Source: a bacterium (GTDB taxonomy: Bacteria; Patescibacteriota; Minisyncoccia; Phycocordibacterales; Phycocordibacteraceae). Taken from it: 64,000 nucleotides of DNA. The translations under genes were made by a program, and so were the position numbers. The first letter of the stretch is position 1; the number at the start of each line of letters is the position of its first letter. Below the pieces are notes generated by a model. The model had not been told where the DNA came from. It saw only the letters and a list, made by a program, of their open reading frames with translations, and searched no databases. The stretch is from contig JBBCGK010000001.1 of assembly GCA_037200965.1 (NCBI GenBank), positions 768,001 to 832,000 of the forward strand. The letters are read 5' to 3'. Shown here piece by piece: positions 4,163 through 45,326 of the stretch.

Positions 4163-4214
4163 GCGCGAAGTATAGCCCGGATCTCCGTGAGATATGCGTG
4201 AAGAAAAGGGGAGC

Positions 4215-4745
4215 TTACCGCAATTTTTTAAATTCCCGGATTATCGGAGTATGCTCGCCTCGCGTTTCAGCACGTTTCAACTGTTGTAATTCGCCTATAT
4301 CGAAGACGCTGTCGAATCCGTCTTCAACCACAGGAGGAGTACGGATAAGCATATTGTGCATGCGCCTGATCGCGTGTTCGGGAACCATAGGTTCACGTAA
4401 ACGATTACGTTCGAGGGCGACCTCCATGGGAACGGCGGCCACCATGCCTTGCACCTTGCTTGCGCCATGTTCGCGGGCGAAGCGAATAAACTCCTTGCGT
4501 TCGAAGTCTTTGGCGAATGTCGCATCGAATACGACCGTCTCCCCGCGCCGCAACGCATCGGCGGTTCTTCGATGTGCTTCTTCCCACACTTCCTTGTTTT
4601 TTGACTGCTCAGTCGCATCGCCAAGCATTTCGAATCGTATATCATCGGGGGAGATGTAGGTATAGGAATTTTCTTCCGCAAAAGGTTTCAGAATTGTCGT
4701 TTTCCCGGAACCGGGAACGCCGATGCCCATAATAAGCTTTGCCAT
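4215..4745 (-). CDS. P-loop NTPase / predicted kinase (AAA_33 or zeta-toxin-like fold).
   Basis: Walker A GIGVPGSGKTT lies close to the N-terminus, with a DxTF-type segment (VFDATF) downstream. I chose the internal ATG at 4745 (MAKLIMGIG...) over the longer track start at 4823. Confidence 0.6.
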   Translation of the reverse strand: MAKLIMGIGVPGSGKTTILKPFAEENSYTYISPDDIRFEMLGDATEQSKNKEVWEEAHRRTADALRRGETVVFDATFAKDFERKEFIRFAREHGASKVQGMVAAVPMEVALERNRLREPMVPEHAIRRMHNMLIRTPPVVEDGFDSVFDIGELQQLKRAETRGEHTPIIREFKKLR

Positions 4746-4960
4746 GTTCTTAAGTATACCTGTGGTCAAAGTCTTATCCCCACGCGAATCATAGGAGGCC
4801 GCGCGCCTGCGGCTATACTTCAAGTACCACGGTGTTGCGCACCGAGTCTCTCCGGACCCGAAAGGGAGTGGTCCGCGTCATGCGCACCCAAACGCTCAAG
4901 CGATTCAGTCTTTATAAACATATCTCCGCGAAGCGGGGCTAACTTCATATATACCGGCGT

Positions 4961-5500
4961 ATGCGCCGCACTCGTCCTATGGCAGCTAAGAATGAAAAGA
5001 TGGATATAGATGTCTCCGAGCCAGTGCCCGAAGCGCCGTGGCCTCCGGCCGCGCCGGGACCAAGGAACGGGCGCAGGATGCGGCGCGGATGGTCCAAGAT
5101 TCTCGCCGCGCTCATCCTGGTCCTCGTCCTCGCCGCGCTTGCGTACTATTTTGTGCAATACCAGCGCCTCAGCCGCGACCCGGCGGTGGTCGCGCGGGCC
5201 GAAGACGCGAAAGTCATACAGGAACTTTCGAAGGTGATGGTGGTCCCGAACGATCCGAGCCCCGTCATTGCGACCGTGTCCGACAAAAGCAAGCTTGCCG
5301 ACCAGCCTTTCTTCGCGCAGGCGCAAAACGGCGACCAGGTCATCATCTTCCCGGTTTCGATGAAAGCCGTGCTCTATCGTCCGTCGGCCCGAAAAATAAT
5401 CGACATCGCGCCGCTTGCAACCGGTGCCTCGGCGTCTGCCGCCGCCCCGTCTCCCGTACCCGCAAAGGCGAAGGCGGCCGCGACGAGCACGACTCCTTAA
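4961..5500 (+). CDS. Hypothetical membrane-anchored protein (single TM, Ala/Pro-rich tail).
   Basis: Hydrophobic segment ILAALILVLVLAALAYYF and a low-complexity C-terminus. No recognisable domain. Codon bias is consistent with the neighbouring genes. Confidence 0.4.
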   Translation: MRRTRPMAAKNEKMDIDVSEPVPEAPWPPAAPGPRNGRRMRRGWSKILAALILVLVLAALAYYFVQYQRLSRDPAVVARAEDAKVIQELSKVMVVPNDPSPVIATVSDKSKLADQPFFAQAQNGDQVIIFPVSMKAVLYRPSARKIIDIAPLATGASASAAAPSPVPAKAKAAATSTTP

Positions 5501-5504
5501 ACGC

Positions 5505-6689
5505 ATGAATATCCGACTCGGCACCATTTCGCTCGTCGCACTCATTTTCTTTTCCTTCGCGCTTCCCGCGTTCGCGTCGGAAACATCCGGAACGGTGCTC
5601 GATTCGCAGAAGTTCGGATGGGGCGACAAGATCGGGTGGATCAATTTCGCACCGACCGACGGCTCCGAGTACGTCGGCCTCGTGATCACCGACAGCGCGG
5701 TGACGGGCTTCGCGTGGAGCAGGGATTTCGGATGGATACGGTTCGATCCGCCGAATTCCGGACAGGGGGTTACGAACACGCCGGAAGGCGTTCTTGGCGG
5801 TTCCGCATGGGTCGCGTCGCTCGGATGGATATCGATGGAGGGCGTAACGATAAATCAAAACGGCGAGTTCACGGGCATCGCCGGAGTCGCTGGCACCGAT
5901 ACCGCGCGTATTTCCTTCGATTGCTCGCGGTGCGGCGTGCAGACTGACTGGCGCCCGGCATCCGTGCGAGGCGGCGGCGGAAACAACGGGGGAGGCAGCG
6001 GCAACAACGGGCGTTCCGGCAGTTCCGTTCCGGACGCATCCTCGCCAGAACCCTCCTCAAGCGGTGGCGGGATCGGTATCGTGCCGTTCTTTCAGAACTT
6101 ATTTACGGGCATCTTCGGCGCAGCTCCCGGGACGAACGCCGGTACCGCTGGCGCGGCGGGCGCTGCCGTTCCGAACAGCCTGTTCGACATTTCGCTCGCG
6201 CTTGAAAAGAGCGTCGTGCCCGCAGGCGAGCCGCTCGTCGCGCTCGTCTCGTTCGCGAACTTCGGAAAGGTTACTACCGCGGCCGACCTCGCCTTCTCCA
6301 TCGTCAACGGCGAGGGAACCGTATTCGCGACATCGACCGCGCGCACGAGCGTCGAAACCGAGAACCTCGTGCGGCAGACGTTTGCTACGACGGCATTCTC
6401 TCCCGGAACGTACTGGATAAAGCTCAGGGTCACGTACGGTTCGCCCGTCATCACCGAAGACTTCAACCAGCAGTTCACAATCACGGCCGCGCAGACGTTC
6501 GCCGGGCGGTGCGGGTTCCCGTGGCCGCTGTCGTATGCCGTGGATCACATCGCGTTCCTCGCCTGGTTCGGCTGTGTATTCCCGTGGATCATCATTATCG
6601 TCACGATACTGATGATCGTCGCTCTCTTCTATTATCTTGTTCATCCGCGTGGAAAGGACCGGCATGCGGCCCGCGCTTTCTCCCGATGA
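5505..6689 (+). CDS. Secreted protein with three GW(I)xF-type repeats, a Gly/Asn-rich linker, a CARDB-like beta-sandwich region and a C-terminal TM anchor.
   Basis: Signal peptide MNIRLGTISLVALIFFSFALPAFA. Repeats GWGDKIGWINFAP, GFAWSRDFGWIRFDP and SAWVASLGWISMEG. C-terminal hydrophobic stretch FPWIIIIVTILMIVALFYYLV. The stop overlaps the next start (ATGA). Confidence 0.55.
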   Translation: MNIRLGTISLVALIFFSFALPAFASETSGTVLDSQKFGWGDKIGWINFAPTDGSEYVGLVITDSAVTGFAWSRDFGWIRFDPPNSGQGVTNTPEGVLGGSAWVASLGWISMEGVTINQNGEFTGIAGVAGTDTARISFDCSRCGVQTDWRPASVRGGGGNNGGGSGNNGRSGSSVPDASSPEPSSSGGGIGIVPFFQNLFTGIFGAAPGTNAGTAGAAGAAVPNSLFDISLALEKSVVPAGEPLVALVSFANFGKVTTAADLAFSIVNGEGTVFATSTARTSVETENLVRQTFATTAFSPGTYWIKLRVTYGSPVITEDFNQQFTITAAQTFAGRCGFPWPLSYAVDHIAFLAWFGCVFPWIIIIVTILMIVALFYYLVHPRGKDRHAARAFSR

Positions 6690-33168: not shown

Positions 33169-33242
33169 TGCCAGATCGTCTAAAGGTAGGACTCGAGACT
33201 CTGAATCTCGCTATCTAGGTTCGAATCCTAGTCTGGCAGCCA
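33169..33242 (+). tRNA. tRNA-Gln (anticodon CTG), CCA encoded.
   Basis: Acceptor TGCCAGA/TCTGGCA; anticodon stem CGAGA/TCTCG with loop CTCTGAA; T-arm CTAGG-TTCGAAT-CCTAG; G-CCA 3' end. Confidence 0.75.
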
Positions 33243-33398
33243 ATTTGAACTCTAAGCCTCCAGCCTTCAATATGAATGACGGAAAGCTTCAAACGGTTTT
33301 AAAAGGCGGTGCATCAAGGCAGGACTGAAAAGTCTCTAAAAGAAAACTTTAACGTGCACAACCTCCTCGAAAGAGGACGGAAAAGTAAGGGCAAGGCA

Positions 33399-35291
33399 AT
33401 GAAAATGGATATGAACAAACAAAGCTCAAACAATAAAAAAGTACACCTCACCTCCGCCAATCTCTCCGAGGAGAAGCTGTTTGAGCTACGCCGCATCCTT
33501 CCCGAAGCGTTCAGCGAAAACAAGATTGACTGGGAGAAGCTCCGCACCGTTCTTGGTGACGCAGTAGACGCCCATATCGAGAAGTTCGGCTTTACCTGGG
33601 CAGGAAAAAGCAACGCTATCAAGAATGTTTTGATACCAAGCAAAGCCACACTCAACCCCGCTCCCGACGAGAGCGTGAAGTTCGATGAAAGCGAGAATCT
33701 CTTTATCGAAGGCGACAACCTCGAAGTCTTGAAGCTCTTGCAAAAAGCGTACTTCGAGAAGGTGAAGATGATTTATATAGACCCGCCATACAACACGGGC
33801 GGCGACTTCGTGTATAAGGACAACTTTGCCGCACCGCTCGACAACTATCTCAAGCAGACCGGCCAGAAGAACGGCAACGGCGAGCATCTCACAACCAACA
33901 AGGAGACCAACGGCCGCTTCCACAGCGACTGGCTTTCAATGATGTACCCACGCCTCAAGCTCGCGTGGAATCTTTTGCGTGATGATGGAGTGATATTTGT
34001 TTCGATTGACGATAACGAAGTGCATCATTTGCGAATACTAATGAATGAGATTTTTGGTGAGGAAAACTTCATCACTAATTTTGTTTGGCACTCTAGTACA
34101 GGTGGTGGTATCAGAAGCAAGTTTGCAAACCAGTCTCATCAATACGTTCTATGCTATGCAAAGAGTGTAGAAGACGTTGAGATGTTCTATGCGCCTCTTT
34201 CTGAAGATGCGAAGAAGCAATATAAGAAAGAGGATGAAAAAGGAGTCTATCGGGAGAAGGATTTTGCTTGGAAAAACTCATCGTGGGGAGCAAATCAAAA
34301 ATACTTCATCGAGTGTCCTGATGGTGAAAAAGCGAGACCAAAGGACGGGTATCTTTACCGCTTCATCGAACCAACTTTCAAGGAGAGTCTGGCAAATAAT
34401 ATGGTTGTCTTCAAAGAAGCAAGAAATAGTCCACTGGTAAATGAAAAAGGCGAGCAATCAAAATGGAACATCTATATCAAAAAGTATTTAGGTGATGGGA
34501 CAGGTGCTCCTTCATCAGTCATTCCGCGAGATTTAGTAGGAATCAATAATGAAGGCACTACAGAACTCAATGAACTGTTTGGTTCGAGTTTGTTTGAAAG
34601 CCCGAAGAATGTCCGGCTTTTGACATACCTACTCTCGTTAGCAGATAGCGATGATGGCGACATAATCCTCGATTTCTTTGCTGGCTCTGGTAGCACCTCT
34701 CACGCAGTGATGGCTCTGAACCAAAAGGATGGAATCAATAGAAAGTGGATTGTGGTTCAACTTCCAGAAAAGACTGACACGGATAGTGCCGCGTACAAAG
34801 CTGGATACAAAACCATTGCTGAACTTTCTGTAGAACGCATACGTCGCGCCGCGAAAAAGCTGGATGTCCAAGACGGCTTCAAGGTATTTAGACTGGCAGC
34901 ATCAAACTACCCAGAGAATACTTTTGAGTTCGACCCAGACAAGGCCGAGGAAGAGAACAAGGCGGCCTTCGAGGATTATTTGAAGCAAGCAAAGCGCGCC
35001 AAGCTTATTGACGACCTAGACGAGACGAGCGTCATCTACGAAAACATCGTCAAGGAAGGATTCTCGCTCAACTCCAAGATTCAGGAAGGCGTGCCAGGAA
35101 ACAACAAGGTCTACACCATCACCGACGGCGACCGGCAGTTTTCTATCTGCCTCGACCGTTCGATTGATGACACGACCGTAAAGAACATCACGGAGTGGGC
35201 TAAAGGAGCGACCTTTATCTGCTTCGATAATGCGCTCTCTGACAGCCAGAAAGCAAACCTCGGCCTCCACGTGGAGCTGAAAACGATATAA
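33399..35291 (+). CDS. mod: Type III restriction-modification system methyltransferase subunit (Mod; N6-adenine MTase).
   Basis: DPPY catalytic motif (IYIDPPYNTGGDFVYKDNF) and SAM-binding FxGSG (DFFAGSGST). Directly upstream of, and 3 nt from, a res-like helicase/endonuclease gene. Start taken at MKMDMNK (33399). GC is lower than the host. Confidence 0.85.
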   Translation: MKMDMNKQSSNNKKVHLTSANLSEEKLFELRRILPEAFSENKIDWEKLRTVLGDAVDAHIEKFGFTWAGKSNAIKNVLIPSKATLNPAPDESVKFDESENLFIEGDNLEVLKLLQKAYFEKVKMIYIDPPYNTGGDFVYKDNFAAPLDNYLKQTGQKNGNGEHLTTNKETNGRFHSDWLSMMYPRLKLAWNLLRDDGVIFVSIDDNEVHHLRILMNEIFGEENFITNFVWHSSTGGGIRSKFANQSHQYVLCYAKSVEDVEMFYAPLSEDAKKQYKKEDEKGVYREKDFAWKNSSWGANQKYFIECPDGEKARPKDGYLYRFIEPTFKESLANNMVVFKEARNSPLVNEKGEQSKWNIYIKKYLGDGTGAPSSVIPRDLVGINNEGTTELNELFGSSLFESPKNVRLLTYLLSLADSDDGDIILDFFAGSGSTSHAVMALNQKDGINRKWIVVQLPEKTDTDSAAYKAGYKTIAELSVERIRRAAKKLDVQDGFKVFRLAASNYPENTFEFDPDKAEEENKAAFEDYLKQAKRAKLIDDLDETSVIYENIVKEGFSLNSKIQEGVPGNNKVYTITDGDRQFSICLDRSIDDTTVKNITEWAKGATFICFDNALSDSQKANLGLHVELKTI

Positions 35292-35293
35292 CT

Positions 35294-37924
35294 ATGAAGT
35301 TCAAGTTTGACGCAAACCAAGATTTTCAAATAAACGCAGTCAACGCCATCGTTGGCGTCTTTGAAGGTCAGCCGAAGCGTCAAAGTGTGGTAGTAAATGT
35401 GCCCGCACTTTCCGTTTCCGGCTCATTGCCGCTCCAAACTACATACGGCATCTATCCGAACGAGCTGACGCTTTCCGACGAGGAGGTGTTTGCCAACGTC
35501 TGGAAGATTCAAGAGCAAAACAAAATCGGCAATGGCGGCACGGTTGAGGAGTACGACTTTTCTATCGAGATGGAGACGGGTACGGGTAAGACGTATGTGT
35601 ACCTTCGTACCGTCTTTGAACTCAACAAGCAATACGGATGGAAGAAGTTTATCGTTCTCGTGCCGTCCGTCGCCATCCGCGAGGGCGTCATCAAGACGCT
35701 CCAAATCACCAAAGACCACTTCGCCGAGCTGTACGACAACGTGCCGTACCGCTTCTACGAGTACCAGTCCAAGAACATCTCGCAGGTGAAGCGCTTTGCG
35801 GAATCCAGCAACCTGGAGATTATGGTGATGACGGTAGGTGCGTTCAACAAGGACGCGAACGTGCTCTATGCCGCCCGCGACCAGATGCAGGGCGAGCAGC
35901 CTATCAGCTACATCCAGCGCAGCAACCCCGTCCTCATCCTCGACGAGCCGCAGAATATGGAAGGTGAAGCGACGAAGGAGGCGCTCAAGAACTTCAACGC
36001 GCTTGCACGCCTGCGATACTCCGCGACGCATCGCAATCCGTACAACCTCATGTACCAGCTCACGCCGTTCGATGCGTATCAGCTCGGCCTCGTAAAGAAG
36101 ATTGAGGTGTATTCCGTTACGGATGACGACACCGGCATCTCGCGCCCGTCGCTCAACCTCATCTCCGTTGAATCCGGCAAGGCGCTCAAGGCAAAGTTAG
36201 AGGCCATCGTGAAAGATGCCGACGGCGCATTGAAGCGCAAGAAGCTCACCGTCAAACAGAACGACGACCTCGCGCAGAAGACCGGCAACGACGTATACGC
36301 CGGCTATATCGTGGACGAGCTTGACGCCGATGCGCCAGACCTCGGGCAGATTGGTAGGATTCGCTTTCGCAACAACGTGGAGATTCGCCAGGGTGAAGGC
36401 GTAGCAAACAACAACGAGCAAGTGATGCGCGAGCAGATTGAGCAGACCATCCGCCGCCACTTCGAGAAACGCAACCAGCTCCGCGATATGGGCATCAAGG
36501 TGCTCTCCCTCTTTTTCATAGACAAGGTAGACAACTACGTTCAATCAGACGGGTTTATCCGCTCTGCGTTCATAGCCGAGTTCAATCGCCTCAAGAAAGA
36601 CTATGGCGCTGACGGCATGGACGTGGATACCGTCCACAAGGGATATTTCGCCAAGCGCGGCGAGGAGTATTTGGAGCGAGAGTCCAGCATCGCCGAGAAC
36701 CAGGAAGCATACGAGCTGATTATGAAGGACAAGGAGCGCCTGCTTTCCTTCGATGAGCCGACGGAGTTCATCTTCTCGCACTCCGCACTCAAGGAAGGAT
36801 GGGACAACCCAAACATTTTCAATATCTGCACCCTGCGCGAGACCGTTTCAGTCATCCGCAAGCGCCAGGAGATTGGCCGAGGTATGCGCCTCTGCGTCAA
36901 TCAGGACGGAGAGCGTATTTTCTTGCGCAGCGTCAACCTGCTCTCCGTGATTGCAAACGAGAGCTATACGGAATACGTCTCATCGCTCCAGGGCGAATAC
37001 GAGGAGGACGGTATCTACAAGTCTGCGCCGTTGCCGAACAATGCCAAGCGAAAGACCACGGTGAAGCTCAAGAAAGATTTTGATAAGGACACGGACTTTG
37101 CTGGTATCTGGGAACGCATCTCGAAGAAGACCCGCTATGTCGTGCAGGTTGATAGCGAGCGCGTCATCGAAGCGTCCGCAAAGCAGATTGCGAAGCTCCA
37201 TCTCGCAAAGCCCAAGATGCGCGTCGAGCGCGCGGGCGTGAACATCGCGGCCGAAGGCATCACCGCAAACATCGTAGGCACCCGTGCCGAGGATTTGAGC
37301 CAGACCAAACGCACCATTGACCCTATCGAACTCATCAAAAACGAGACCAAGCTGACGCGCCACACGGTCGCGGAGATTTTGGCGAAAGCGGACAATACCG
37401 ACTCCTTCCTCAAGAATCCCGAACGCTTCTGCTTCGAGGCAACGCGCATCATCAAGGCCGAGCTGGTGAAGGATTACGTTTCCCAGATTCGCTATGAGGT
37501 ACTGCCGGAGCAGTATGACCTCAAGCAGTTCGAGGACATCCCGAGCTACAAGGACGCGACGCACAAGGTGAACAACTCCATCTACGACGCCATCGTGTAT
37601 GACTCCGACGTGGAGAAGAACTTTGCCGTCGCCCTCGATGCCGACGAGCGCGTGAAGCTCTTTATCAAGATGCCCAACTGGTTCAAGGTGAACACGCCTA
37701 TCGGCGGCTACAACCCCGACTGGGCAATCGTTACGGCCAAGCGAGACCTCCAGGGCAATGAGGAGAAGGAGCGCGTGTATTTCGTGATTGAGACGAAGGG
37801 CGACATCTCCAACATGCGCGAGAGCGAAGGACAAAAGATTGCTTCCGCCAAAAAGCACTTTGAAGTCATCGAGGTGAACTACAAGGAGGTCGAGAATTAT
37901 GGACAGTTTGCTGAACAACTATGA
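35294..37924 (+). CDS. res: Type III restriction enzyme Res subunit (SF2 helicase + endonuclease).
   Basis: Helicase motif I METGTGKTYV and motif II ILDEPQN, further SF2 motifs, and a C-terminal nuclease region. About 876 aa. Confidence 0.85.
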   Translation: MKFKFDANQDFQINAVNAIVGVFEGQPKRQSVVVNVPALSVSGSLPLQTTYGIYPNELTLSDEEVFANVWKIQEQNKIGNGGTVEEYDFSIEMETGTGKTYVYLRTVFELNKQYGWKKFIVLVPSVAIREGVIKTLQITKDHFAELYDNVPYRFYEYQSKNISQVKRFAESSNLEIMVMTVGAFNKDANVLYAARDQMQGEQPISYIQRSNPVLILDEPQNMEGEATKEALKNFNALARLRYSATHRNPYNLMYQLTPFDAYQLGLVKKIEVYSVTDDDTGISRPSLNLISVESGKALKAKLEAIVKDADGALKRKKLTVKQNDDLAQKTGNDVYAGYIVDELDADAPDLGQIGRIRFRNNVEIRQGEGVANNNEQVMREQIEQTIRRHFEKRNQLRDMGIKVLSLFFIDKVDNYVQSDGFIRSAFIAEFNRLKKDYGADGMDVDTVHKGYFAKRGEEYLERESSIAENQEAYELIMKDKERLLSFDEPTEFIFSHSALKEGWDNPNIFNICTLRETVSVIRKRQEIGRGMRLCVNQDGERIFLRSVNLLSVIANESYTEYVSSLQGEYEEDGIYKSAPLPNNAKRKTTVKLKKDFDKDTDFAGIWERISKKTRYVVQVDSERVIEASAKQIAKLHLAKPKMRVERAGVNIAAEGITANIVGTRAEDLSQTKRTIDPIELIKNETKLTRHTVAEILAKADNTDSFLKNPERFCFEATRIIKAELVKDYVSQIRYEVLPEQYDLKQFEDIPSYKDATHKVNNSIYDAIVYDSDVEKNFAVALDADERVKLFIKMPNWFKVNTPIGGYNPDWAIVTAKRDLQGNEEKERVYFVIETKGDISNMRESEGQKIASAKKHFEVIEVNYKEVENYGQFAEQL

Positions 37925-38169
37925 ACTTCTATGGAGTCTTTATCGGGATAGACAGATACGCCTCTCCAAGTATCAACATGTTCGTGGACGAAGTGGCGGC
38001 AAACCGGAAGCTCGACACCGACAAGGTTGCGGCGCTCGCTGATGGCCGCACCTACGTTGGCACGGATGCCGTGAGCAACGGGCTGATTGACGGCATCGGC
38101 AGCATCCCCGAAGCGTCCGACTATCTCACTCAACAGATTGGTGAGCAGGCGTCTGTGTGTTGGTACTAA
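37921..38169 (+). pseudogene. Possible 3' remnant of a signal peptide peptidase A (S49, sppA) gene.
   Basis: ADGRTYVGTDAVSNGLIDGIGSIPEASDYL resembles the SppA C-terminal G-R-V-W-T-G..A...GL-V-D..G motif. Only 82 codons, beginning exactly at the res stop. Confidence 0.3.
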
Positions 38170-38174
38170 AAATT

Positions 38175-38699
38175 ATGAACCTCTACGTCATCGCAGCAAT
38201 CATCATCGCCCTCGTCATCGTACTCGCTATACTCAAGGCGGTTGTTGAAGGCAGTGGTGGAGACAAGGAAAAGTCGAAGTACCGCTACACTCGCAAACAG
38301 TTTTTCCTTACCCGCGCCGAGCACGAGTGCTATGACGCCCTCGTTGCAGCGGTTGGCGATAAGTATTACGTCTTCGCGCAGGTACACCTTCCGACCATTC
38401 TCGATAACAAGGTGAAGGGGCAAGATTGGCGTGCCGCGCTTGCGCACGTCAGCCGCAAGTCCGTTGACTTCGTGCTCTGCGACAAGGCATACATTTCGCC
38501 GAAGCTCGCCATTGAGCTGGACGACAAGAGCCACGAGCGACCCGACCGGCAAGAACGGGACCGAGAAGTTGAGCGTATCTTGAGTGATGCAGGACTACCG
38601 CTTCTTCGACTGGAGAATCGCGGGGCGTTCAATACTGCGGAGCTGCTACAGAGGATTGATGATGCAGTGAAAGGTTTTGGTGAAAAAACCTCCTCCTAG
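38175..38699 (+). CDS. DUF2726-like (restriction-endonuclease-fold / NERD-like) protein with N-terminal TM.
   Basis: LTRAEHECYDAL ... YYVFAQVHL ... VDFVLCDK ... AIELDDKSH ... E..RD pattern, recalled from DUF2726 proteins found in defence islands. Confidence 0.55.
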   Translation: MNLYVIAAIIIALVIVLAILKAVVEGSGGDKEKSKYRYTRKQFFLTRAEHECYDALVAAVGDKYYVFAQVHLPTILDNKVKGQDWRAALAHVSRKSVDFVLCDKAYISPKLAIELDDKSHERPDRQERDREVERILSDAGLPLLRLENRGAFNTAELLQRIDDAVKGFGEKTSS

Positions 38700-39100
38700 A
38701 GAGGGCATCCCCCGCCGAAAGGTCGGAAGCAAAAAGGAAACTACCACCACCCAGATTCCATATTTTCGTAGAAAACATTGAAGATGCACGGGGTATACCC
38801 CTCTGATGTACCTCTGCGTGTCTTCTGCTACAGAATAAGCACTAGAAAGCACACAGTGCCGGATAAAGGGAACACTGGTAAAGCAAGGCCAGGCGCGCGA
38901 CAGTGCTCCTGGCCTTGTGCGGCAGTGGGGTGGCTATGCGGCTACTACCGAGAGTAATTGCTGCATCTGCTGGAGAGAAACGGTAGGATATGGGAACATC
39001 CAGCCAGTTGATAGTTCGTAGTTCCTCCCTCCAAGCCAGCCAACTTGAGGCAGGTTCGGTAGTCCGAGGTGCATCAAAATCGTCTGTTACAATTTTCGTA

Positions 39101-39634
39101 ATGAAAACCATCCTTGTCATTCGACATTCTCATTGGGATGGGCAAACAGATACTCTCAGCCTGGAAGGTATAGCTGATTGCGAAGCAAAGAAGACCACTC
39201 TTGGATCTTTTACTACAGTTATTGCCTCTCCCTTCAATCGCACGGTAGAAGCGGCTCGGCTCCTAAGTGGTAATGATCCAGTTGTCGATGACCGAGCATC
39301 TATGCTCGCCTTAACACCGGAAGAGGCTGCCTGGCTGAAGGAGGCTCGCAAGAACTCTCCGCTCGGAGTGGCGGGGGTTATTTTCGGTCGACCAGATTTT
39401 CTAGAACCAGTAAAAGTCGCTGGAGAAAAGTGTCTTTCGCTTATAGAAGAGACGCTCGAAAAGTTACCTCTTGATGGGAGAGCACTTATTGTCTCGCATG
39501 ACGGGACTATGGTTGCAGTCGAGAAGTTACTCAAAAATGAACCGTTTTCTGGTCCGTTAGACCATACCTACGGAAACCTTGAAGGATTTGAGGTTGATGC
39601 TAACCTTAAATTCACTAAGCTCGCCTTCACATGA
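39101..39634 (+). CDS. Histidine phosphatase superfamily (phosphoglycerate-mutase-like) protein.
   Basis: ILVIRHSHWDG aligns with the RHG catalytic motif; about 178 aa. Confidence 0.5.
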   Translation: MKTILVIRHSHWDGQTDTLSLEGIADCEAKKTTLGSFTTVIASPFNRTVEAARLLSGNDPVVDDRASMLALTPEEAAWLKEARKNSPLGVAGVIFGRPDFLEPVKVAGEKCLSLIEETLEKLPLDGRALIVSHDGTMVAVEKLLKNEPFSGPLDHTYGNLEGFEVDANLKFTKLAFT

Positions 39635-40608
39635 TCGTCCCTGCAAAAGAACTCCTAGATTTTGCCTACAAGAAATTCTCTGTGGGTGCCTATAACATCC
39701 ACAACCTCGAGCAGTTGATGGGACTCCTCTATGGAAGCCAAAAATCAAACGCGCCCTTTATCGTTCAGGCGTACCCGAGCACCCTCAACTACACGGACGC
39801 TAGCATGCTCGAAGCCCTTTTCCATGAGGCAGACAAGCTTTTTCCTGACCTGATTTTTGCCGTCAGTATTGATCATGGCGATGAAGCTACATGTATGAGA
39901 GCTATTGATTCGGGAGCGTACTCACACGTGATGATAGACGCTTCAATGGAAACCTTTGAGAAGAATATCGAGATTACGAAACGTGTCGTCGATCATGCGC
40001 ATTCTCGCGGCGTATCCGTGGAAGGTATGGTAGGAAAACTCGGTGGTCTGGAAAAGCACATGAAAGTTCTCGACGTATCCGAAGTGCAATTGACCACCGT
40101 TGAACAGGCACGAGAGTTTGCGGAGAGAACTGGCTGCGACAGTCTTGCTGTGTCTATCGGTACACTACATGGTGCTAACAAGGCTCCAGACGGCATACCT
40201 CGAAAGGTAGACCTCGATCGTCTCAAGGAAATAGGTGAAGCGCTCGAAGGTACTCCACTTGTTATGCACGGTTCGTCCTGCCTGCCACAGGAGGAAGTAA
40301 GACGGGTAGACGCCGCAGGAGGAAAGCTTGAACGCGTCGGAGGAATGGATGAAACACAGCAAAGTGAGGTACATAAACTTGGAGTTGCTCAGATAAATGT
40401 AAACAGCGATGGCCTTCTTATCTGGACGCGCTCGATCAGAGAATATCTGAGGGACTATCCAGGCGTGATTGATTTACGTGAGTCGGGCAAGGCTTTTATG
40501 CAGGAGTATGCGAGTTTCATAGCTCACAAGAATGATGTGTTCGGCTCATCCGGCAAACTTGATGCGTTGACAGAACACTACGAAACCCCATGGACATTAA
40601 TGAACTAG
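39631..40608 (+). CDS. fba: Class II fructose-bisphosphate aldolase family protein.
   Basis: VSIDHGDE (zinc-binding His), HGSS, and a GTLHG motif. About 325 aa. Confidence 0.85.
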   Translation: MIVPAKELLDFAYKKFSVGAYNIHNLEQLMGLLYGSQKSNAPFIVQAYPSTLNYTDASMLEALFHEADKLFPDLIFAVSIDHGDEATCMRAIDSGAYSHVMIDASMETFEKNIEITKRVVDHAHSRGVSVEGMVGKLGGLEKHMKVLDVSEVQLTTVEQAREFAERTGCDSLAVSIGTLHGANKAPDGIPRKVDLDRLKEIGEALEGTPLVMHGSSCLPQEEVRRVDAAGGKLERVGGMDETQQSEVHKLGVAQINVNSDGLLIWTRSIREYLRDYPGVIDLRESGKAFMQEYASFIAHKNDVFGSSGKLDALTEHYETPWTLMN

Positions 40609-41348
40609 AAAAAATCGATACGACCGTTATCAGCGACCTAATCGTCTCGCGTCTTCCATTGCCACTGCAAACATCACAAAAAGAGAATTTACTCTCGCCC
40701 AAGCCTCAAGCGTTACAAGACGTCATTGCTGATATCGAAAAGATAGAACATGAATGGAAGCTTGATACTGCTGACGAAGGTCACACTTACGGACGTAAGC
40801 ATGCTGGTGAGACTATTCAACTTTGGTCTGTGCCGCCTAAGAGTGCGCAAGTACTGGAGAATCTCGTTGTACTTACGGGCGCTAAGACCATTCTTGAAAT
40901 AGGAACCTCAGCAGGATACGCTGCGCTTTTCTTAGCTCATGGTGCCAAAGCAAATGGCGGACATGTTTATACGATCGAGCTTCTTAAGGAGAAAGCTGAC
41001 CTTGCTCGGGGTAATTTTGATAAGTCTGGCCTTGATAACATCACGCTTATAGAAGATGAGGCGTCAAAAGTCTTGAGCGCTTGGGATAATGGGAAAATAG
41101 ACTTTGTTTTTCTCGATGCCGATAAGGAAAACTACGGAAAATATTTTGACCAACTTGTACCACTTATGAATATTAGTGGTCTTATCGTAGCTGATAACGT
41201 GAATGACTACGGTCACATGATGGAAGATTATTTGCAGAAGGTAAGTGGTACGCATCTTCCAAAGACGAGAACTGATCACAGGGTTAAGAGCTATTACCTA
41301 GCAATGCTTGAAAATGGGTTGATGGTTACTCAGAAGATATCTGAATAG
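40590..41348 (+). CDS. Class I SAM-dependent O-methyltransferase (catechol-OMT-like, family 3).
   Basis: ILEIGTSAGYAALFLA, DFVFLDADKENY and the LIVADNV motif. Confidence 0.8.
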   Translation: MDINELEKIDTTVISDLIVSRLPLPLQTSQKENLLSPKPQALQDVIADIEKIEHEWKLDTADEGHTYGRKHAGETIQLWSVPPKSAQVLENLVVLTGAKTILEIGTSAGYAALFLAHGAKANGGHVYTIELLKEKADLARGNFDKSGLDNITLIEDEASKVLSAWDNGKIDFVFLDADKENYGKYFDQLVPLMNISGLIVADNVNDYGHMMEDYLQKVSGTHLPKTRTDHRVKSYYLAMLENGLMVTQKISE

Positions 41349-41526
41349 TTTTATTATTGAGAATTATTTTACTTTTCAAGCATCCTGAGAAATTAGGTCC
41401 AGAAGTACATATTTGGACTTCTCAAAAGGTAGTTTGGGCTCATATCTGCGACAGCCGACCTCAGCGAGAGCAGGACTAGCGTTCCAACACCGTCCCAGAC
41501 TCCCGCTCGATAAGCTTACTTTCTTC

Positions 41527-42126
41527 ATGGAGAAAATAGAGCAGCTGCGGGATGAGGTGCACAATCTATATGCCCAAAAACTTCCTGGCCGTGCTGACTG
41601 GGCTGACTGGATCTATGATAAGCATGTCGTTCTTGTTGGCAATGAAGCAAGGAAGATAGCCGAAATGTACGGAGGAAGTCCGGAGCTTGCAGAGGCTGCT
41701 GGACTTTTGCACGATGTGGCCGACGCAGTAATGAAGCGGCAGGATCCGAATCATGAAAAGGAAAGCCTGCGTATTGCACGGGAGATGCTGCAGAAGACCG
41801 GATTTGGCGACAAGGAGATAGCCATAGTGGTAGACGATGCGATCGCGAAGCATAGTTGCCATGGAGAGACTCGGCCCGTCTCTGCAGAGGGGAAGGCAAT
41901 GGCAGCGGGAGACGGTGTCGTTCATCTCACAAGTGATTTTTATAAGATTGCCGAGGCGGGGAAACTTGGTCATAAATCACCACGAGAGGTTGCAGAGTGG
42001 GCCCTGCCAAAACTAGAACGCGATTTCACCAATAAGATTGCCTATGATGATTTAAGGGAGGAGATACGGCCAGATTACGAACAACTTAGGAAACACTTTC
42101 AGGATCTAGCCTCGGCCGGGGTGTAG
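41527..42126 (+). CDS. HD domain phosphohydrolase.
   Basis: H...LLHDVAD motif. Start at MEKIEQL (ATG 41527). Confidence 0.7.
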   Translation: MEKIEQLRDEVHNLYAQKLPGRADWADWIYDKHVVLVGNEARKIAEMYGGSPELAEAAGLLHDVADAVMKRQDPNHEKESLRIAREMLQKTGFGDKEIAIVVDDAIAKHSCHGETRPVSAEGKAMAAGDGVVHLTSDFYKIAEAGKLGHKSPREVAEWALPKLERDFTNKIAYDDLREEIRPDYEQLRKHFQDLASAGV

Positions 42127-42179
42127 AGGTCCAACTTCGTACCGGACAGCCAGCCGACAGTTTCGCCCGCTTGCCATCC

Positions 42180-43300
42180 TGCACAAGTTCAGATACATAT
42201 GGCACTCCTCCTAACTGAGGAGCGATGCGTCAATTCAACATACTGAAGGATACCGAGGGCTGGTTGTATATGCGCGAGCGGAGCATACGCTTCCTGCATA
42301 TGAGGAACAACGACGAGGTGCGGCATCGGGTCAAGGTGCTGGACTTCTGGAAAACGCACGGGGAGCGTGCGGCCAGGGACGCCTTCAGCGTCTCTCGCCG
42401 CACGCTCTTCCGTTGGCAGGCGAAGCTCGACCGCGCGCACGGGAGACTCGACGCGCTCGATCCCAAGTCGACGGCACCGAAGAATCGGAGGAGACGCATC
42501 GTCCTCCCCGAGGTCGAGACGTTCATCCTGAAGGAGCGCGCGGAGCATCCGAGGCTCGGCAAGGCGAAGCTCGCAGCCCTGCTGCGGGAGGACGGGTACC
42601 GGGTATCCGAATCGTATGTCGGGAGGGTCGTCGCGGACCTCAAGAGGAGAGGGCTGCTGCTCCCGCACAAGCCGCTCTCATACTATGCGCGAAGCGGCAC
42701 GTATCGGGAGAAGCCCGTATCGAAGCGCACGAAGCTGCGCAGGCGGCACAAGCGGGGCATGGAGCTCGACACCGTCGTCCGCTTCATCGACGGCGTGAAG
42801 CGGTACGTCCTGACCGCCATCGATGTCGAGAAGAAGTTCGCCTTCGCCGGCGCGTATACCGTCCACTCCTCCGCGTCCGCCGCCGATTTCCTCGCGCGCG
42901 TCATCGCGGTGTGCCCCTTCGACATCACGGAGCTCCAGACCGACAACGGCCCGGAGTTCGCCAAGAACTTCGAGGCGGGGTGCCGCGCCCTCGGCCTCAC
43001 CCACTTCAATACGTTTCCCCGCAGCCCGAAGATGAACGCGTTCGTCGAGCGGTTCAACCGGACGATCTCGGAGGACTGCATCATGCTCAATCGGCCGCTC
43101 CTGCGGGACGACGTCGCGGCATTCAACCTGAAGCTGGTCGACTGGCTGCTCTGGTACAACGCCCGGCGTCCGCACGAGTCCCTGGGACAGGTGCCGCCGC
43201 TCCGGTATATACTCTCCTCATTAACGGCCGAGGAGTGCCAGAGGTACTGGACGCGTACACATCCTTGACAGAATTTAGACCAGGCTGCATTGTGGCGTCG
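42180..43300 (+). mobile_element. IS481-family insertion sequence (boundaries approximate; terminal inverted repeats not resolved).
   Basis: A single transposase ORF whose GC content differs from the left flank. I could not confidently pair terminal IRs by eye. Confidence 0.5.
42225..43268 (+). CDS. IS481-family DDE transposase (integrase core).
   Basis: N-terminal HTH, then an rve-type core with TDNGPEF and a downstream catalytic Glu (FNRTISED). High GC, unlike the lower-GC island to its left. Confidence 0.85.
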   Translation: MRQFNILKDTEGWLYMRERSIRFLHMRNNDEVRHRVKVLDFWKTHGERAARDAFSVSRRTLFRWQAKLDRAHGRLDALDPKSTAPKNRRRRIVLPEVETFILKERAEHPRLGKAKLAALLREDGYRVSESYVGRVVADLKRRGLLLPHKPLSYYARSGTYREKPVSKRTKLRRRHKRGMELDTVVRFIDGVKRYVLTAIDVEKKFAFAGAYTVHSSASAADFLARVIAVCPFDITELQTDNGPEFAKNFEAGCRALGLTHFNTFPRSPKMNAFVERFNRTISEDCIMLNRPLLRDDVAAFNLKLVDWLLWYNARRPHESLGQVPPLRYILSSLTAEECQRYWTRTHP

Positions 43301-43355: not shown

Positions 43356-43616
43356 GTGAAGGACCCCCCTTGTTACAGGGGTATTGTCAGGAACATTCTT
43401 CCTGGCAACGACCCGTACGCCGTCGTTGAATGCGACGGCGTGCCTGACCTCGTTACCGTTTCTCTGGGCGCACAAAGAGGCGTTTGGGAAGACTCAAGCC
43501 TGCCAGTGGTAGGCTCTGCAGTGATCCTCAGCGACGTTCAGTGCGTTCATGGGAAGTGGCGGGCCTACAACGCCCGGTTGTTCAAACCATCAGATGGAAG
43601 AGGAGTCCATGGCTAA
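43356..43616 (+). CDS. Small hypothetical protein (GTG start with AAAGGAG RBS).
   Basis: AAAGGAGAAATCGAAT-GTG spacing is ideal. 86 aa, no known motif. Confidence 0.35.
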   Translation: MKDPPCYRGIVRNILPGNDPYAVVECDGVPDLVTVSLGAQRGVWEDSSLPVVGSAVILSDVQCVHGKWRAYNARLFKPSDGRGVHG

Positions 43617-44262
43617 CAAAGGAGTCATGGGGATTCTTGAAAGTATCGGGGCAGTCGAAGTCGTGAATGACGGAGACCCACCCCCACCACCTTCAAGTTT
43701 CCCACCCACCGCAGCGCCAACACCGGTCCTGCAGCCAAGTGTGGCTGTACCGGCTGCCGGCACGGCCGACCAGGGTATGGTCGGTAAAATCCGTGGGGCT
43801 GTCACCAGCCGCACGCATTCGCCTGGATTTGCGATTTTTCTGGCAAATTTCGAGAAGGCAAAACAAGCCTTCCCGAACGACCCTCGAAATGCCGCAGCCG
43901 CAGCGCTTGTCTTTTCTTCGCAGACCTCGCAAGAGATCGGCGCAGAACTGAGTCGCTCTGTGGCGGCATCTCTGGCCGAAGCCGGATCGCAGATCAATGT
44001 CGACATCGCGCAACAGCGCGAGAGGTTGGCAGGCCAGCTCGATGGCGAAGAAAGCAGTCTCGACGGTGAGATTCACCGATTCGAGGCGGATCTCGCCGCC
44101 ATCCAGAAAAAGCTCGACGATGCGAAAGGCGCGAAAGCGCAGATCGCGAGTCGTCGTGCTGATGGCAGGGCAGCCATCGACTCTCGTCTCGCAACGGCAC
44201 TCGCCAGTCTGGCAGTCGTTCGTGACGAGATCGCAACCATCAAATCAATATTGCCGTCGTAA
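43609..44262 (+). CDS. Hypothetical protein: Pro-rich N-terminus + coiled-coil.
   Basis: ATG at 43609 (MANKGVMGIL). The C-terminal half has heptad-like periodicity (LDGEIHRFEADLAAIQKKLDDAKGAKAQIASRRADGRAAIDSRLATALASL). Confidence 0.45.
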   Translation: MANKGVMGILESIGAVEVVNDGDPPPPPSSFPPTAAPTPVLQPSVAVPAAGTADQGMVGKIRGAVTSRTHSPGFAIFLANFEKAKQAFPNDPRNAAAAALVFSSQTSQEIGAELSRSVAASLAEAGSQINVDIAQQRERLAGQLDGEESSLDGEIHRFEADLAAIQKKLDDAKGAKAQIASRRADGRAAIDSRLATALASLAVVRDEIATIKSILPS

Positions 44263-44294
44263 CCCGGCGGCTAGGAGAAAAGGATCAAAGGAAA

Positions 44295-45326
44295 ATGGCT
44301 CAACAGTCGAACATGAATGACTTCTTCGACCAGCTCCCGACTCCCCCACGGGAGAAGGCGATACGCTGGGGGTTCTATGCCGGTGTGAGCTTGCTCGCGC
44401 TTGGCGTGGGACTCAAGATCATGCCTCCTGTCAACAATCTGCTCGACATGATGCTTCATGGCGCGTGGACTCTCGGCGAGATCGGTCTGGTCGGCGCCAG
44501 CATCGCAGTCGGCACAGTGGCTTTTACCAGCCTCTGGCCGTCGTACCGTCGCTTCATGGAAAGTGTCGCGCGGCGCACAACCGTCGCGATCTATGGCGAC
44601 GATCCGATCACGCCGCTCCACATGTGGCTCGCGGAAGTGAGCTCGGATTGCGAACAGATCGAAGCAGCGCAAAGTGAAGTCAGCGGCATCATCGAGGAGA
44701 ACAAGAAGGCCGCCTCTGACAATCTGACGCTGCTTGCGCAATCCGATGCCAGGTTTGCTTTCGCGGTACGGAAGCACGGCGAAGAGAGTGACCAAGCCAG
44801 AAACGCCTCCGCGGAATCTGGTGGCTACAAAGATCGGGCCGAAAATGCAGACCGCATCAACGTCCCGCTCATTGAGCTTTATGAACTGCTTGATGAGATC
44901 GCGAAAGCGAATCGTCATGTCGAGCATGAAGCCAAAATCGCCATCGAGACAGCGGAGCAGGAATGGCGTGCCGCCCTCAAGGCAGAGATTGCCATGGGCG
45001 CGGCGACTCGCACTCTCAACAAGCGCAGTGAGCGGTATGTCAACGCCACCCTGGCGTTCGGCATCATCCGCCAGAAGTACGCCGGCAACTTCGGCAAGCT
45101 TCGTTCGCTGCGTCGCCTATCGGAGCAGGCCATCAATTCGGCGGCTCTGGAAGGAGGTGTCAAACTGCAGGAATCGCTTGCCCGCCTCCGTGCGGAAAGC
45201 AAGTCGCTTCTCGGTCACGCCCCCGCGCTTGCCGTCCCGGATTTCTCCGGAAAGGGCAGGCAGAAGGTTCCGGTTCCAGCTGGTTCCGGGCCCGCGTCCC
45301 TTCGTCTGTTCGACGAAGAGAAGTGA
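44295..45326 (+). CDS. Hypothetical membrane protein (2 TM) with long cytoplasmic coiled-coil.
   Basis: TM helices at about residues 25-45 and 60-80, then a helical Glu/Ala/Arg-rich region. Resembles TelA / toxic-anion-resistance-like architecture only loosely. Confidence 0.45.
   Translation: MAQQSNMNDFFDQLPTPPREKAIRWGFYAGVSLLALGVGLKIMPPVNNLLDMMLHGAWTLGEIGLVGASIAVGTVAFTSLWPSYRRFMESVARRTTVAIYGDDPITPLHMWLAEVSSDCEQIEAAQSEVSGIIEENKKAASDNLTLLAQSDARFAFAVRKHGEESDQARNASAESGGYKDRAENADRINVPLIELYELLDEIAKANRHVEHEAKIAIETAEQEWRAALKAEIAMGAATRTLNKRSERYVNATLAFGIIRQKYAGNFGKLRSLRRLSEQAINSAALEGGVKLQESLARLRAESKSLLGHAPALAVPDFSGKGRQKVPVPAGSGPASLRLFDEEK

What the first reader, a model, noticed from the sequence alone, without database searches (positions are those of the whole stretch)
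37921..38699. Membrane-anchored DUF2726-like nuclease-fold protein adjacent to the Type III R-M
38175..38699 encodes an N-terminal TM helix followed by a domain with the PD-(D/E)xK-like pattern recalled from DUF2726 (LTRAEHECYDAL ... VDFVLCDK ... IELDDKSH). DUF2726 proteins recur in defence islands with no assigned mechanism. A membrane-tethered version next to an R-M system is a candidate stand-alone anti-phage effector.
Basis: partly seen in the sequence, partly recalled or inferred. Interest (0 to 1): 0.5.

Follow-up and report, generated by a model that had tools for sequence, protein, structure and literature searches.

The report
Membrane-anchored DUF2726 nuclease-fold gene beside restriction system
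The gene is a typical member of DUF2726, a large family of unknown function with a membrane anchor and a nuclease-like fold, and in small-genome (CPR) bacteria it repeatedly sits as the last gene of restriction-modification islands; no function has been shown for it.

Summary

- The membrane anchor is not special. 118 of 132 full-length family representatives have one, as do the IncF (R100 "YihA"), IncHI2 and IncT plasmid copies. Charge distribution predicts a cytoplasmic domain.
- The link to R-M is real and recurrent. In 8 of 82 loci compared (81 related loci plus the window), the gene lies downstream of Type III mod-res on the same strand. Three unrelated Type III lineages are involved. It is the last gene of the shared DNA block in the L044/L081 pair, and the conserved distal gene in the L027/L045/L054 comparisons.
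- At least 18 of 82 loci carry R-M or defence genes within about 5 genes. Other copies sit in serine-recombinase islands next to tRNA genes.
- No PADLOC model matches the protein, and I found no experimental evidence of function.

Best guess (about 0.4): a mobile-element or defence-island nuclease tethered to the inner face of the membrane that acts on entering DNA. It is a new member of a known, uncharacterised family. Interest is moderate.

The parts
38175..38699 (+). Gene for a 174-aa DUF2726 protein (TM anchor, basic linker, Vsr-like nuclease-fold domain)
   Evidence: ORF and sequence; PF10881 E=6.4e-30; 1378 homologues in the indexed search and 6992 clusters at 50% identity; AlphaFold model with pLDDT 77.5.
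38181..38249 (+). N-terminal transmembrane helix (residues 3-25)
   Evidence: Hydropathy about 2.9; model helix H3-25. A TM helix is present in 77 of 82 locus homologues, with 0-1 K/R before it and mostly 5-7 after it. Across family representatives the means are 0.19 K/R before and 3.9 after. By the positive-inside rule this predicts N-terminus out and domain in.
38250..38303 (+). Basic, Tyr-rich juxtamembrane linker (residues 26-43, including the conserved K-Y-x-Y-x-R-K-x-F-F)
   Evidence: pLDDT below 50 for residues 26-41; Y36, Y38, F43 and F44 are invariant.
38304..38657 (+). DUF2726 domain (residues 44-161) with core order alpha-beta-beta-beta-alpha-beta
37921..38169 (+). Remnant of an S49 (SppA-like) peptidase gene, 82 codons, lacking the catalytic core
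   Evidence: PF01343 E=1.3e-11, covering profile positions 96-150 only. tblastn places residues 211-274 of the intact 274-aa L025 protein at 37975..38166, 48% identity. Alignment shown.
35294..37924 (+). Type III restriction subunit (Res, 876 aa)
   Evidence: ResIII and RE_endonuc domains; PADLOC REase_III 5.8e-240. The stop codon overlaps the ATG of the S49 relic.
33309..35291 (+). Type III methyltransferase (Mod, 660 aa)
   Evidence: N6_N4_Mtase 2.6e-33; PADLOC MTase_III 8.7e-179.
33169..33242 (+). tRNA-Gln(CTG) at the left edge of the low-GC block
   Evidence: ARAGORN; Rfam tRNA 60.6 bits. GC falls from about 0.58-0.60 to 0.43-0.55 between about 33.3 and 42.0 kb.
42225..43268 (+). rve-family (IS481-like) transposase at the right edge of the low-GC block
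   Evidence: Pfam rve_3, HTH_32 and rve; GC returns to about 0.62 here.

Best explanation
SHOWN. The gene encodes a standard DUF2726 protein. It has a single N-terminal membrane anchor, a short basic linker and a Vsr/DUF559-like PD-(D/E)xK domain whose acidic and His residues are fully conserved. It lies in a tRNA-adjacent, low-GC island as the gene distal to a Type III mod-res pair, on the same strand, with only a gutted S49 gene in between. The same layout recurs with three unrelated Type III lineages in other CPR genomes. The family is otherwise carried on serine-recombinase islands and conjugative plasmids.

INFERRED. (1) Positive-inside charge bias places the domain in the cytoplasm, held within a few nanometres of the membrane. 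(2) It is an active metal-dependent DNA endonuclease. (3) Because it is tethered where DNA crosses the membrane, it acts on incoming DNA from phage injection, conjugation or transformation. In this locus it would be an accessory to the Type III enzyme, for example by degrading or nicking DNA that the Type III system has cut once. In other contexts it would be a mobile-element exclusion or defence nuclease. (4) It is probably co-transcribed with mod-res, since no promoter or terminator pattern separates them.
For: Family and fold. Conserved catalytic-type residues. TM helix and charge bias across the family. Same-strand Type III mod-res upstream in 8 of 82 loci (the window included), with a 4-bp overlap to a 32-bp gap in four of them. 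The three R-M lineages share only about 20% Res identity, while the DUF2726 proteins share 54-78% and their tree disagrees with the R-M lineages. DNA homology between L044 and L081 covers mod-res-DUF2726 and stops at the 3' end of DUF2726. In L027, L045 and L054 the genes between res and DUF2726 vary while both ends are kept. Type I, Type IIG, Snf2/DrmD-like, OLD-like and Hhe-like neighbours occur in 10 further loci. Pfam counts at gene offsets -1/-2 are ResIII 7, N6_N4_Mtase 3 and Eco57I 2, against ResIII 2 and one D12 MTase at offsets +/-6-7. Island signals in the window (tRNA-Gln, GC dip, transposase). tRNA and serine-recombinase contexts of the closest clade. 2869 plasmids carry a homologue and 85% of them are conjugative. 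No promoter or terminator pattern lies between res and the gene.
Against: No nuclease activity, topology or phenotype has been measured for any DUF2726 protein in the literature searched. No PADLOC model matches. For about 78% of loci no R-M or defence gene was seen nearby, and some neighbours are housekeeping genes (GroEL, DnaG, RpoD, AlaRS). The protein is unusually well conserved for a defence effector, with 47 invariant positions in 32 sequences. It has no obvious DNA-recognition module or self/non-self discrimination. The Pfam tallies list only the 25 commonest families, so the comparison with the control offsets is rough. Gene calls in the loci are crude longest-ORF calls. The R100 copy lies at the trailing end of the transfer region next to the replicon, which does not suggest an early-entry function.
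Confidence: 0.4

Rival explanations
1. Mobile-element housekeeping or establishment factor. The nuclease serves the element that carries it (island or plasmid), for example by processing its own DNA at the membrane during transfer or integration, excluding competing elements, or countering host defences. Its place beside R-M would then simply reflect shared residence in islands.
For: 2869 plasmids carry a homologue, 85% of them conjugative. It is a backbone gene in IncF R100 (between finO and repA2), IncHI2 and IncT plasmids. The closest relatives of the window protein sit in SerRec-c22-DUF2726-p196 modules abutting tRNA-Ser. A 49-member YihA/PF10881 family is listed among 'Other unknown leading families' of plasmids in PMC11541004, supplementary file 3. 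Steczkiewicz et al. 2012 note mobile elements around DUF2726 genes.
Against: It does not explain why the gene so consistently sits distal to res on the same strand, with start/stop overlap, in three unrelated Type III lineages. The window copy has no recombinase or transfer genes next to it.
Confidence: 0.25
2. Nucleotide-salvage or DNA-uptake nuclease of CPR bacteria. A membrane-tethered nuclease would degrade DNA imported by the competence machinery to feed cells that cannot make nucleotides.
For: The subfamily is spread across many Patescibacteria lineages with high conservation. It has a membrane tether. An SNase-family nuclease occurs at +1/+2 in two loci. That CPR bacteria lack nucleotide synthesis is general knowledge and was not tested here.
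Against: No competence genes are among the recurrent neighbours. The tree is discordant and the contexts are island-like, which indicates horizontal movement rather than a core gene. The same architecture is common on enterobacterial plasmids, whose hosts make their own nucleotides.
Confidence: 0.12
3. Vsr-type mismatch-repair nickase that accompanies DNA methyltransferases. This is the meaning of the JGI label 'very-short-patch-repair endonuclease'.
Against: There is no PF03852 (Vsr) hit at E<=0.1. The neighbouring MTases are of the N6_N4_Mtase and N6_Mtase families, not C5-cytosine MTases. There are only two Cys residues, so a Vsr-like Zn site is not evident. A membrane tether is ill-suited to genome-wide repair. 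3hrl (DUF559) and 3r3p (a homing endonuclease) match as well or better.
Confidence: 0.05
4. Selfish free-standing homing-type endonuclease that marks and propagates the edge of islands. A second, less interesting possibility is a passive passenger with no current function.
For: The structural neighbour 3r3p is the catalytic domain of homing endonuclease I-Bth0305I. The gene sits exactly at the end of shared homology blocks and beside tRNA genes. Its phylogeny is discordant with that of its neighbours.
Against: A conserved membrane anchor is not expected for a homing enzyme. There is no extra DNA-recognition domain in a protein of 174 aa. Strong conservation of the whole protein argues against a decaying passenger.
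Confidence: 0.08

Closest known systems
DUF2726 (Pfam PF10881), including plasmid R100/F-type 'YihA' and the IncHI2, IncT and mcr-1-plasmid DUF2726 genes
   Same: Strong profile match. Same size and architecture: a short N-terminal tail, one TM helix, then the domain. Same conserved V-D-[FY/V]...ELDD..H...R.RD core. Residence on mobile DNA.
   Different: Only about 34-38% identical to the plasmid copies. The window belongs to a CPR-centred subfamily of 88 clusters at E<=1e-30. Here it is coupled to Type III R-M rather than to plasmid replication or transfer regions.
DUF559 (PF04480) and MTES_1575 (PF18741) Vsr-like endonuclease domains (structure 3hrl; C-terminal domains of Hhe-like helicases)
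   Different: The DUF559 hit barely passes its cut-off (22.0 against 20.6 bits) and MTES_1575 fails its own (24 against 38.2). Those domains are soluble or fused to helicases, not TM-anchored.
E. coli Vsr (1cw0) and homing endonuclease I-Bth0305I (3r3p)
   Different: No Vsr profile hit, no dcm-type partner, no extra DNA-binding domain, and a membrane anchor.
Canonical Type III R-M systems (EcoP15I-like Mod2Res1/2)
   Same: Mod and Res upstream are typical.
   Different: Textbook Type III systems have two genes. A conserved third, membrane-anchored nuclease-fold gene distal to res is not part of the definition. The PADLOC Type III models do not include it.

Membership tests
DUF2726 (PF10881) | Match to the family profile above the curated gathering score | tested here: met
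   103.9 bits against a cut-off of 24.7, E=6.4e-30, profile positions 4-123 of 126.
DUF2726 (PF10881) | Restriction-endonuclease-like (PD-(D/E)xK, Vsr branch) fold | tested here: met
DUF2726 (PF10881) | Usual architecture: an N-terminal TM helix followed by a single domain, about 160-200 aa in total | tested here: met
   118 of 132 full-length cluster representatives have a TM helix. So do the plasmid copies and the window protein.
Active PD-(D/E)xK nuclease | Acidic residues on alpha1, beta2 and beta3 positioned to bind metal; catalytic activity | tested here: inconclusive
   E49 (helix 47-60), D98 (strand 96-103), E114/D116 (strand 109-116) and H120 are invariant in 32 homologues. The geometry was not measured and activity cannot be tested with these tools.
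Vsr very-short-patch repair endonuclease (PF03852) | Match to the Vsr profile | tested here: not met
   No PF03852 hit at E<=0.1. There is only a fold-level resemblance.
Vsr very-short-patch repair endonuclease (PF03852) | Partnership with a C5-cytosine methyltransferase | tested here: not met
   The adjacent MTase is of the N6_N4_Mtase family, and elsewhere N6_Mtase.
   Not among the Pfam hits at E<=0.1.
Known anti-phage defence systems (PADLOC-DB v2.0.0) | Match to a model of a known or candidate defence protein | tested here: not met
   The best hit is mREase_II at E=0.037 and 11.3 bits, which is not significant.
Known anti-phage defence systems | Enrichment next to known defence genes | tested here: met
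   At least 18 of 82 loci have R-M or defence genes within about 5 genes. 8 have same-strand Type III mod-res upstream. R-M families are commoner at offsets -1/-2 than at +/-6-7. This is a small sample with crude gene calls.
Known anti-phage defence systems | Protection against phage when expressed | not testable with these tools
Type III R-M system (as a third component) | Conserved, co-oriented linkage with mod and res across independent lineages | tested here: met
   Three R-M lineages with about 20% Res identity between them all have the gene distal to res. In the L044/L081 pair, shared DNA homology ends at its 3' end. Only 8-9 of 82 DUF2726 loci are linked to Type III. The fraction of Type III systems that carry it was not measured.

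The most novel reading that the evidence does not exclude
TM-anchored DUF2726 proteins are a widespread, unrecognised class of membrane-proximal 'gatekeeper' nucleases that act on DNA as it enters the cell. They would work as a third component of some Type III (and Type I/IIG) restriction islands in CPR bacteria and as exclusion or defence factors on conjugative plasmids. That would include the decades-old unexplained yihA gene of F/R100-type plasmids.
Probability: 0.2. Interest if true: 0.7.

Novelty: new member of a known kind. Interest (0 to 1): 0.38.

Why it matters
DUF2726 is a large family: 6992 clusters at 50% identity, and about 4% of PLSDB plasmids carry a homologue. It includes a backbone gene of IncF, IncHI2 and IncT plasmids, yet I found no assigned function. 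Two results here make that function testable. First, the membrane anchor with an inward-facing nuclease-fold domain is the rule for the family. Second, in CPR genomes the gene is repeatedly the distal gene of Type III restriction blocks from unrelated lineages. Together these suggest a concrete hypothesis: a nuclease posted at the site of DNA entry. The hypothesis can be tested cheaply in E. coli with existing plasmids. If the gene turns out to be a passenger, the finding is an ordinary annotation of a domain of unknown function.

Tried and rejected
1. Sequence searches of the PDB with the protein and with a 32-sequence profile found nothing meaningful. Only the fold search placed the protein.
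2. PADLOC gave no hit for the protein.
3. I looked for att-like direct repeats of the tRNA-Gln end, or any flanking repeats around the island. Only short chance-level repeats turned up.
4. The promoter/terminator scan of 33.0-39.2 kb was no better than shuffles, and showed nothing between res and the gene.
5. The Rfam scan of 32.5-43.5 kb found only the tRNA and a sub-threshold miRNA artefact.
6. The 196-aa partner (p196), the c22 protein, the serine recombinase and TspO seen beside close homologues are all absent from the window.
7. Phage carriage is slight: 8 weak hits in 50,697 phage records, all in Vibrio phages or small elements, and 3 weak hits in IMG/VR. The subfamily is therefore not typically phage-borne.
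8. I rejected the 'hotspot anchor' idea, in which DUF2726 is a fixed chromosomal gene next to which islands insert. Flanks downstream of DUF2726 are not syntenic even between close copies, while homology blocks include mod-res-DUF2726.
9. The supplementary files of Vassallo et al. 2022 held here do not mention DUF2726.
Full report
**1. What is in the sequence**

The window has an ORF at 38175..38699 (+). The mechanical ORF list begins it at GTG 38157, but homologues start MNLY/MNIY, so ATG 38175 is the start. The 174-aa product opens with a strongly hydrophobic stretch. Kyte-Doolittle hydropathy is about 2.9 over the first 19-mers.

Pfam gives PF10881 (DUF2726) at E=6.4e-30, 103.9 bits against a cut-off of 24.7, over residues 44-161. 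There are weak hits to the related Vsr-like families MTES_1575 and DUF559. There is no hit to Vsr itself or to NERD.

One correction is needed. Bases 37921..38169, included in the finding's interval, are a different object. They form an 82-codon remnant of an S49 (SppA-like) peptidase (PF01343, E=1.3e-11, C-terminal profile positions only). It aligns to residues 211-274 of an intact 274-aa protein that occupies the same position in locus L025. A few scraps of the core are retained (GVFIGIDRY resembling GVVIEIDSYGG) and the catalytic region is deleted.

**2. Fold and catalytic-type residues**

An AlphaFold2 model was built from 32 homologues. Mean pLDDT is 77.5, and the domain blocks mostly score 73-92, with a dip to 59. 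It shows:
- a helix at residues 3-25;
- a disordered basic linker at 26-41;
- an alpha-beta-beta-beta-alpha-beta core.

RAP domains and several Type II restriction enzymes follow. This agrees with the published classification, which puts VSR, DUF559 and DUF2726 in one PD-(D/E)xK group (PMC3424549).

E49 on the first helix, D98 on the second strand, E114/D116 on the third strand and H120 are invariant across 32 homologues. The motif is therefore the D...ExD...H variant of the DUF559/Vsr branch, not a classical D...(D/E)xK. Sequence searches of the PDB found no solved relative. Activity is inferred, not shown.

**3. The membrane anchor is the family norm, and the domain should face the cytoplasm**

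- Among 82 locus homologues, 77 have a TM-like N-terminal 19-mer. They have essentially no K/R before it and mostly 5-7 in the 20 residues after it.
- Among 132 full-length representatives of 50%-identity clusters, 118 have the helix. Mean K+R is 0.19 before it and 3.9 after it.
- The copies on IncHI2, IncT (Rts1) and IncFII (R100) plasmids have the same layout.

By the positive-inside rule, which is established knowledge, the N-terminus is outside and the nuclease-fold domain is inside, tethered to the inner face of the membrane. 'A membrane-tethered version' is therefore simply the standard DUF2726 protein.

**4. Who has it**

The indexed search found 1378 relatives. The top 120 are 64-100% identical and about 165-180 aa long. 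The few that carry organism names are mostly CPR/Patescibacteria. The exhaustive search found 6992 clusters at E<=1e-3, 2850 at E<=1e-10 and 88 at E<=1e-30.

In species-representative genomes the close relatives are almost all Patescibacteria. Examples are Taylor-, Zambryski-, Kaiser-, Adler-, Nomura-, Harrison- and Yanofskybacteria, 'Saccharibacteria' and Microgenomates. More distant ones occur in Bacillota, Chloroflexota and Planctomycetota.

Outside CPR, 2869 of 72,556 PLSDB plasmids carry a homologue at about 34-38% identity, and 85% of these are predicted conjugative. In R100 the gene lies between finO/thermonuclease/hha and repA2. A protein family labelled 'YihA' and 'PF10881 family' is listed in PMC11541004, which matches my own recollection that the R100 gene is yihA; the R100 record itself names no gene. 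Phage genomes and IMG/VR contigs rarely carry it.

**5. Genomic context: method**

I called ORFs crudely in 82 non-redundant loci, the window included. I clustered the products and tabulated the neighbours.

**6. Genomic context: the Type III link**

The order mod-res-(0-3 genes)-DUF2726, all on one strand, occurs in the window and in L025, L027, L044, L045, L053, L054 and L081. That is 8 of 82 loci. L046 has a Type III pair on the opposite strand. In L044, L053, L054 and L081 the DUF2726 start lies between a 4-bp overlap with res and 32 bp beyond its stop.

The Type III systems fall into three lineages:
- A: L025, L044, L053, L081, with Res 65-81% identical to each other;
- B: L027, L045, L054, with Res 76-85% identical;
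- C: the window.

Res identity between lineages is only about 20%. The DUF2726 proteins are 54-78% identical, and their tree cuts across the R-M lineages. For example, the L025 copy (lineage A) is 77-78% identical to those of L027 and L045 (lineage B).

At the DNA level, L044 and L081 share one block running through mod, res and DUF2726 that stops at the 3' end of DUF2726. L027, L045 and L054 share mod-res and DUF2726, while the genes between res and DUF2726 differ or are absent. In these loci, then, DUF2726 belongs to the restriction block and is its distal, conserved end. It is not a chromosomal gene next to which islands happen to land.

**7. Genomic context: other neighbours**

- Type I systems occur in L020, L024, L026, L072, L082 and L031. 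L026 also has an OLD-like ATPase-TOPRIM gene and a Cas4-like nuclease.
- L019 has a Snf2/DrmD-like helicase plus a Type IIG enzyme directly upstream. L056 has a Type IIG enzyme downstream.
- L032 has an Hhe/PDC-S37-like helicase.

In all, at least 18 of 82 loci have R-M or defence genes within about five genes.

Pfam tallies are as follows. At offsets -1/-2: ResIII 7, Resolvase 4, N6_N4_Mtase 3, Eco57I 2, N6_Mtase 2. At offsets +/-6-7: ResIII 2, Resolvase 2 and one D12 MTase. These tallies show only the 25 commonest families, so the contrast is indicative only.

**8. Genomic context: mobile islands**

The clade closest to the window protein (79-82% identity) sits in compact modules of serine recombinase, a 250-aa protein, DUF2726 and an overlapping 196-aa protein with no Pfam match. 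These modules abut a tRNA-Ser gene. Other copies have a tRNA-Ser or tRNA-Asn immediately upstream.

In the window:
- tRNA-Gln (33169..33242) directly precedes mod;
- GC falls from about 0.58-0.60 to 0.43-0.55 between about 33.3 and 42.0 kb;
- an rve-family transposase lies at 42225..43268.

I found no att-like repeat. The window copy lacks the 196-aa partner and the recombinase.

**9. What it most likely does**

Shown:
- family membership, fold and conserved acidic/His residues;
- the N-terminal anchor with a strong charge bias;
- recurrent co-oriented placement distal to Type III res in three unrelated lineages;
- general residence in defence islands, tRNA-adjacent integrative islands and conjugative plasmids.

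Inferred:
- the domain is cytoplasmic and catalytically active;
- being held at the membrane, it meets DNA that crosses the membrane;
- in this locus it is probably co-transcribed with mod-res, since no promoter or terminator pattern intervenes (a weak test for CPR).

My preferred reading, at about 0.4, is an island- or plasmid-borne nuclease that acts on entering DNA. Here it would serve as an accessory to the Type III enzyme.

The rivals are:
- a function serving the mobile element itself (0.25);
- a CPR nucleotide-salvage or DNA-uptake nuclease (0.12);
- a homing-type selfish nuclease or passive passenger (0.08);
- a Vsr-type mismatch nickase accompanying methyltransferases (0.05). This one is contradicted by the absence of a Vsr profile hit, by the non-C5 partner methyltransferases and by the membrane tether.

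**10. Comparison with what is known, and novelty**

The protein passes every membership test I could apply for DUF2726. It fails those for Vsr, NERD and any PADLOC defence protein.

The literature held here has no functional study. It has the PD-(D/E)xK census, a note that a DUF2726 REase domain is fused to AbiJ-type N-terminal domains (PMC3710099), and mentions as a neighbour of mcr-1 on IncX4/IncI2 plasmids. It also has two genetic screens. In Avibacterium paragallinarum, transposon insertions raised biofilm formation (PMC13119452). In Pseudomonas putida, Tn-seq under fluoride stress flagged a DUF2726 gene.

A 49-member YihA/PF10881 family appears among 'Other unknown leading families' of plasmids in PMC11541004, supplementary file 3.

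The window gene is therefore a new member of a known, uncharacterised family. To my knowledge from the library searched, two points are new:
- the TM anchor and inward orientation are family-wide;
- in CPR genomes the gene is repeatedly the distal gene of Type III restriction blocks.

**11. Verdict**

Interest is moderate (0.38). This is an ordinary family member, but the recurrent coupling and the existence of easily manipulated plasmid homologues make the function of a very common unknown domain testable.

Noticed in passing
window 37921-38169: An 82-codon in-frame remnant of an S49/SppA-like peptidase lies between res and the DUF2726 gene. An intact 274-aa TM-anchored version occupies the same slot in L025 (7159-7983), and another lies 4 kb from the DUF2726 gene in L060. 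This suggests an older S49-DUF2726 pairing that is decaying here.
   Followed up: partly
window 33169-43268: There is a low-GC block (0.43-0.55 against about 0.58-0.60) between tRNA-Gln and an rve-family transposase. Besides the R-M genes it carries a His_Phos_1 phosphatase-like gene (38990-39634), a class II fructose-bisphosphate aldolase (39631-40608), an O-methyltransferase (40590-41348) and an HD-domain protein (41413-42126). A central glycolytic gene inside an apparent island is curious.
   Followed up: partly
L001, L010, L014, L015, L016, L042 (about 8488-9078 in each): A 196-aa protein with no Pfam match overlaps the 3' end of the DUF2726 gene by about 40 nt in the clade closest to the window. 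It is followed by tRNA-Ser and preceded by a large serine recombinase and a 250-aa protein that also has no Pfam match. This looks like a compact integrative element of CPR bacteria. The partner is absent from the window.
   Followed up: partly
L096 (R100) 4085-5429; L094 (IncHI2) 2527-6435; two CPR loci at +1/+2: A thermonuclease/SNase-family gene recurs near DUF2726 genes on IncF and IncHI2 plasmids and in two CPR loci (Pfam SNase, 2 members). This may be a pairing of an exported nuclease with a membrane-tethered one.
   Followed up: no
L024 4279-7917 (1213 aa) and 3386-4279; L064 3599-6052 (818 aa): Large proteins directly upstream of DUF2726 on the same strand (overlapping its start in L024) have no Pfam or PADLOC match. 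They occupy the slot that R-M enzymes fill elsewhere, so they are candidates for unknown defence genes.
   Followed up: no
L026 1660-7941: A Type I-like MTase with an HSDR_N_2 domain, an OLD-like AAA_15/TOPRIM ATPase, an S subunit and a Cas4-like PDDEXK_1 protein (L026 7192-7941; Pfam was run on its cluster-mate L045 6020-6799) lie in a row immediately upstream of DUF2726. L045 has the same Cas4-like gene between res and DUF2726.
   Followed up: no
L004 versus L005 (identical protein P0041): The same DUF2726 protein has an identical right flank (SWIB, DnaG, RpoD) but different left flanks in two assemblies. A tRNA-Ser lies just upstream in L004. This suggests a recombination or integration junction right at the 5' side of the gene.
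   Followed up: no
window 43549-45326: Two adjacent ORFs (237 aa and 343 aa) just right of the transposase have no Pfam hit at E<=0.01.
   Followed up: no
window 42363-42407: A 20-nt inverted repeat (90% complementary, 5-nt loop) lies inside the transposase gene. It accounts for a sub-threshold Rfam 'mir-2830' match (31.8 bits against a gathering score of 70), which is an artefact.
   Followed up: yes
literature (PMC13119452): In Avibacterium paragallinarum, two independent transposon insertions in a DUF2726 gene increased biofilm formation. This is one of only two phenotype-related mentions of the family found in the searched library, the other being a P. putida Tn-seq hit under fluoride stress, and it was not interpreted by the authors.
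   Followed up: no
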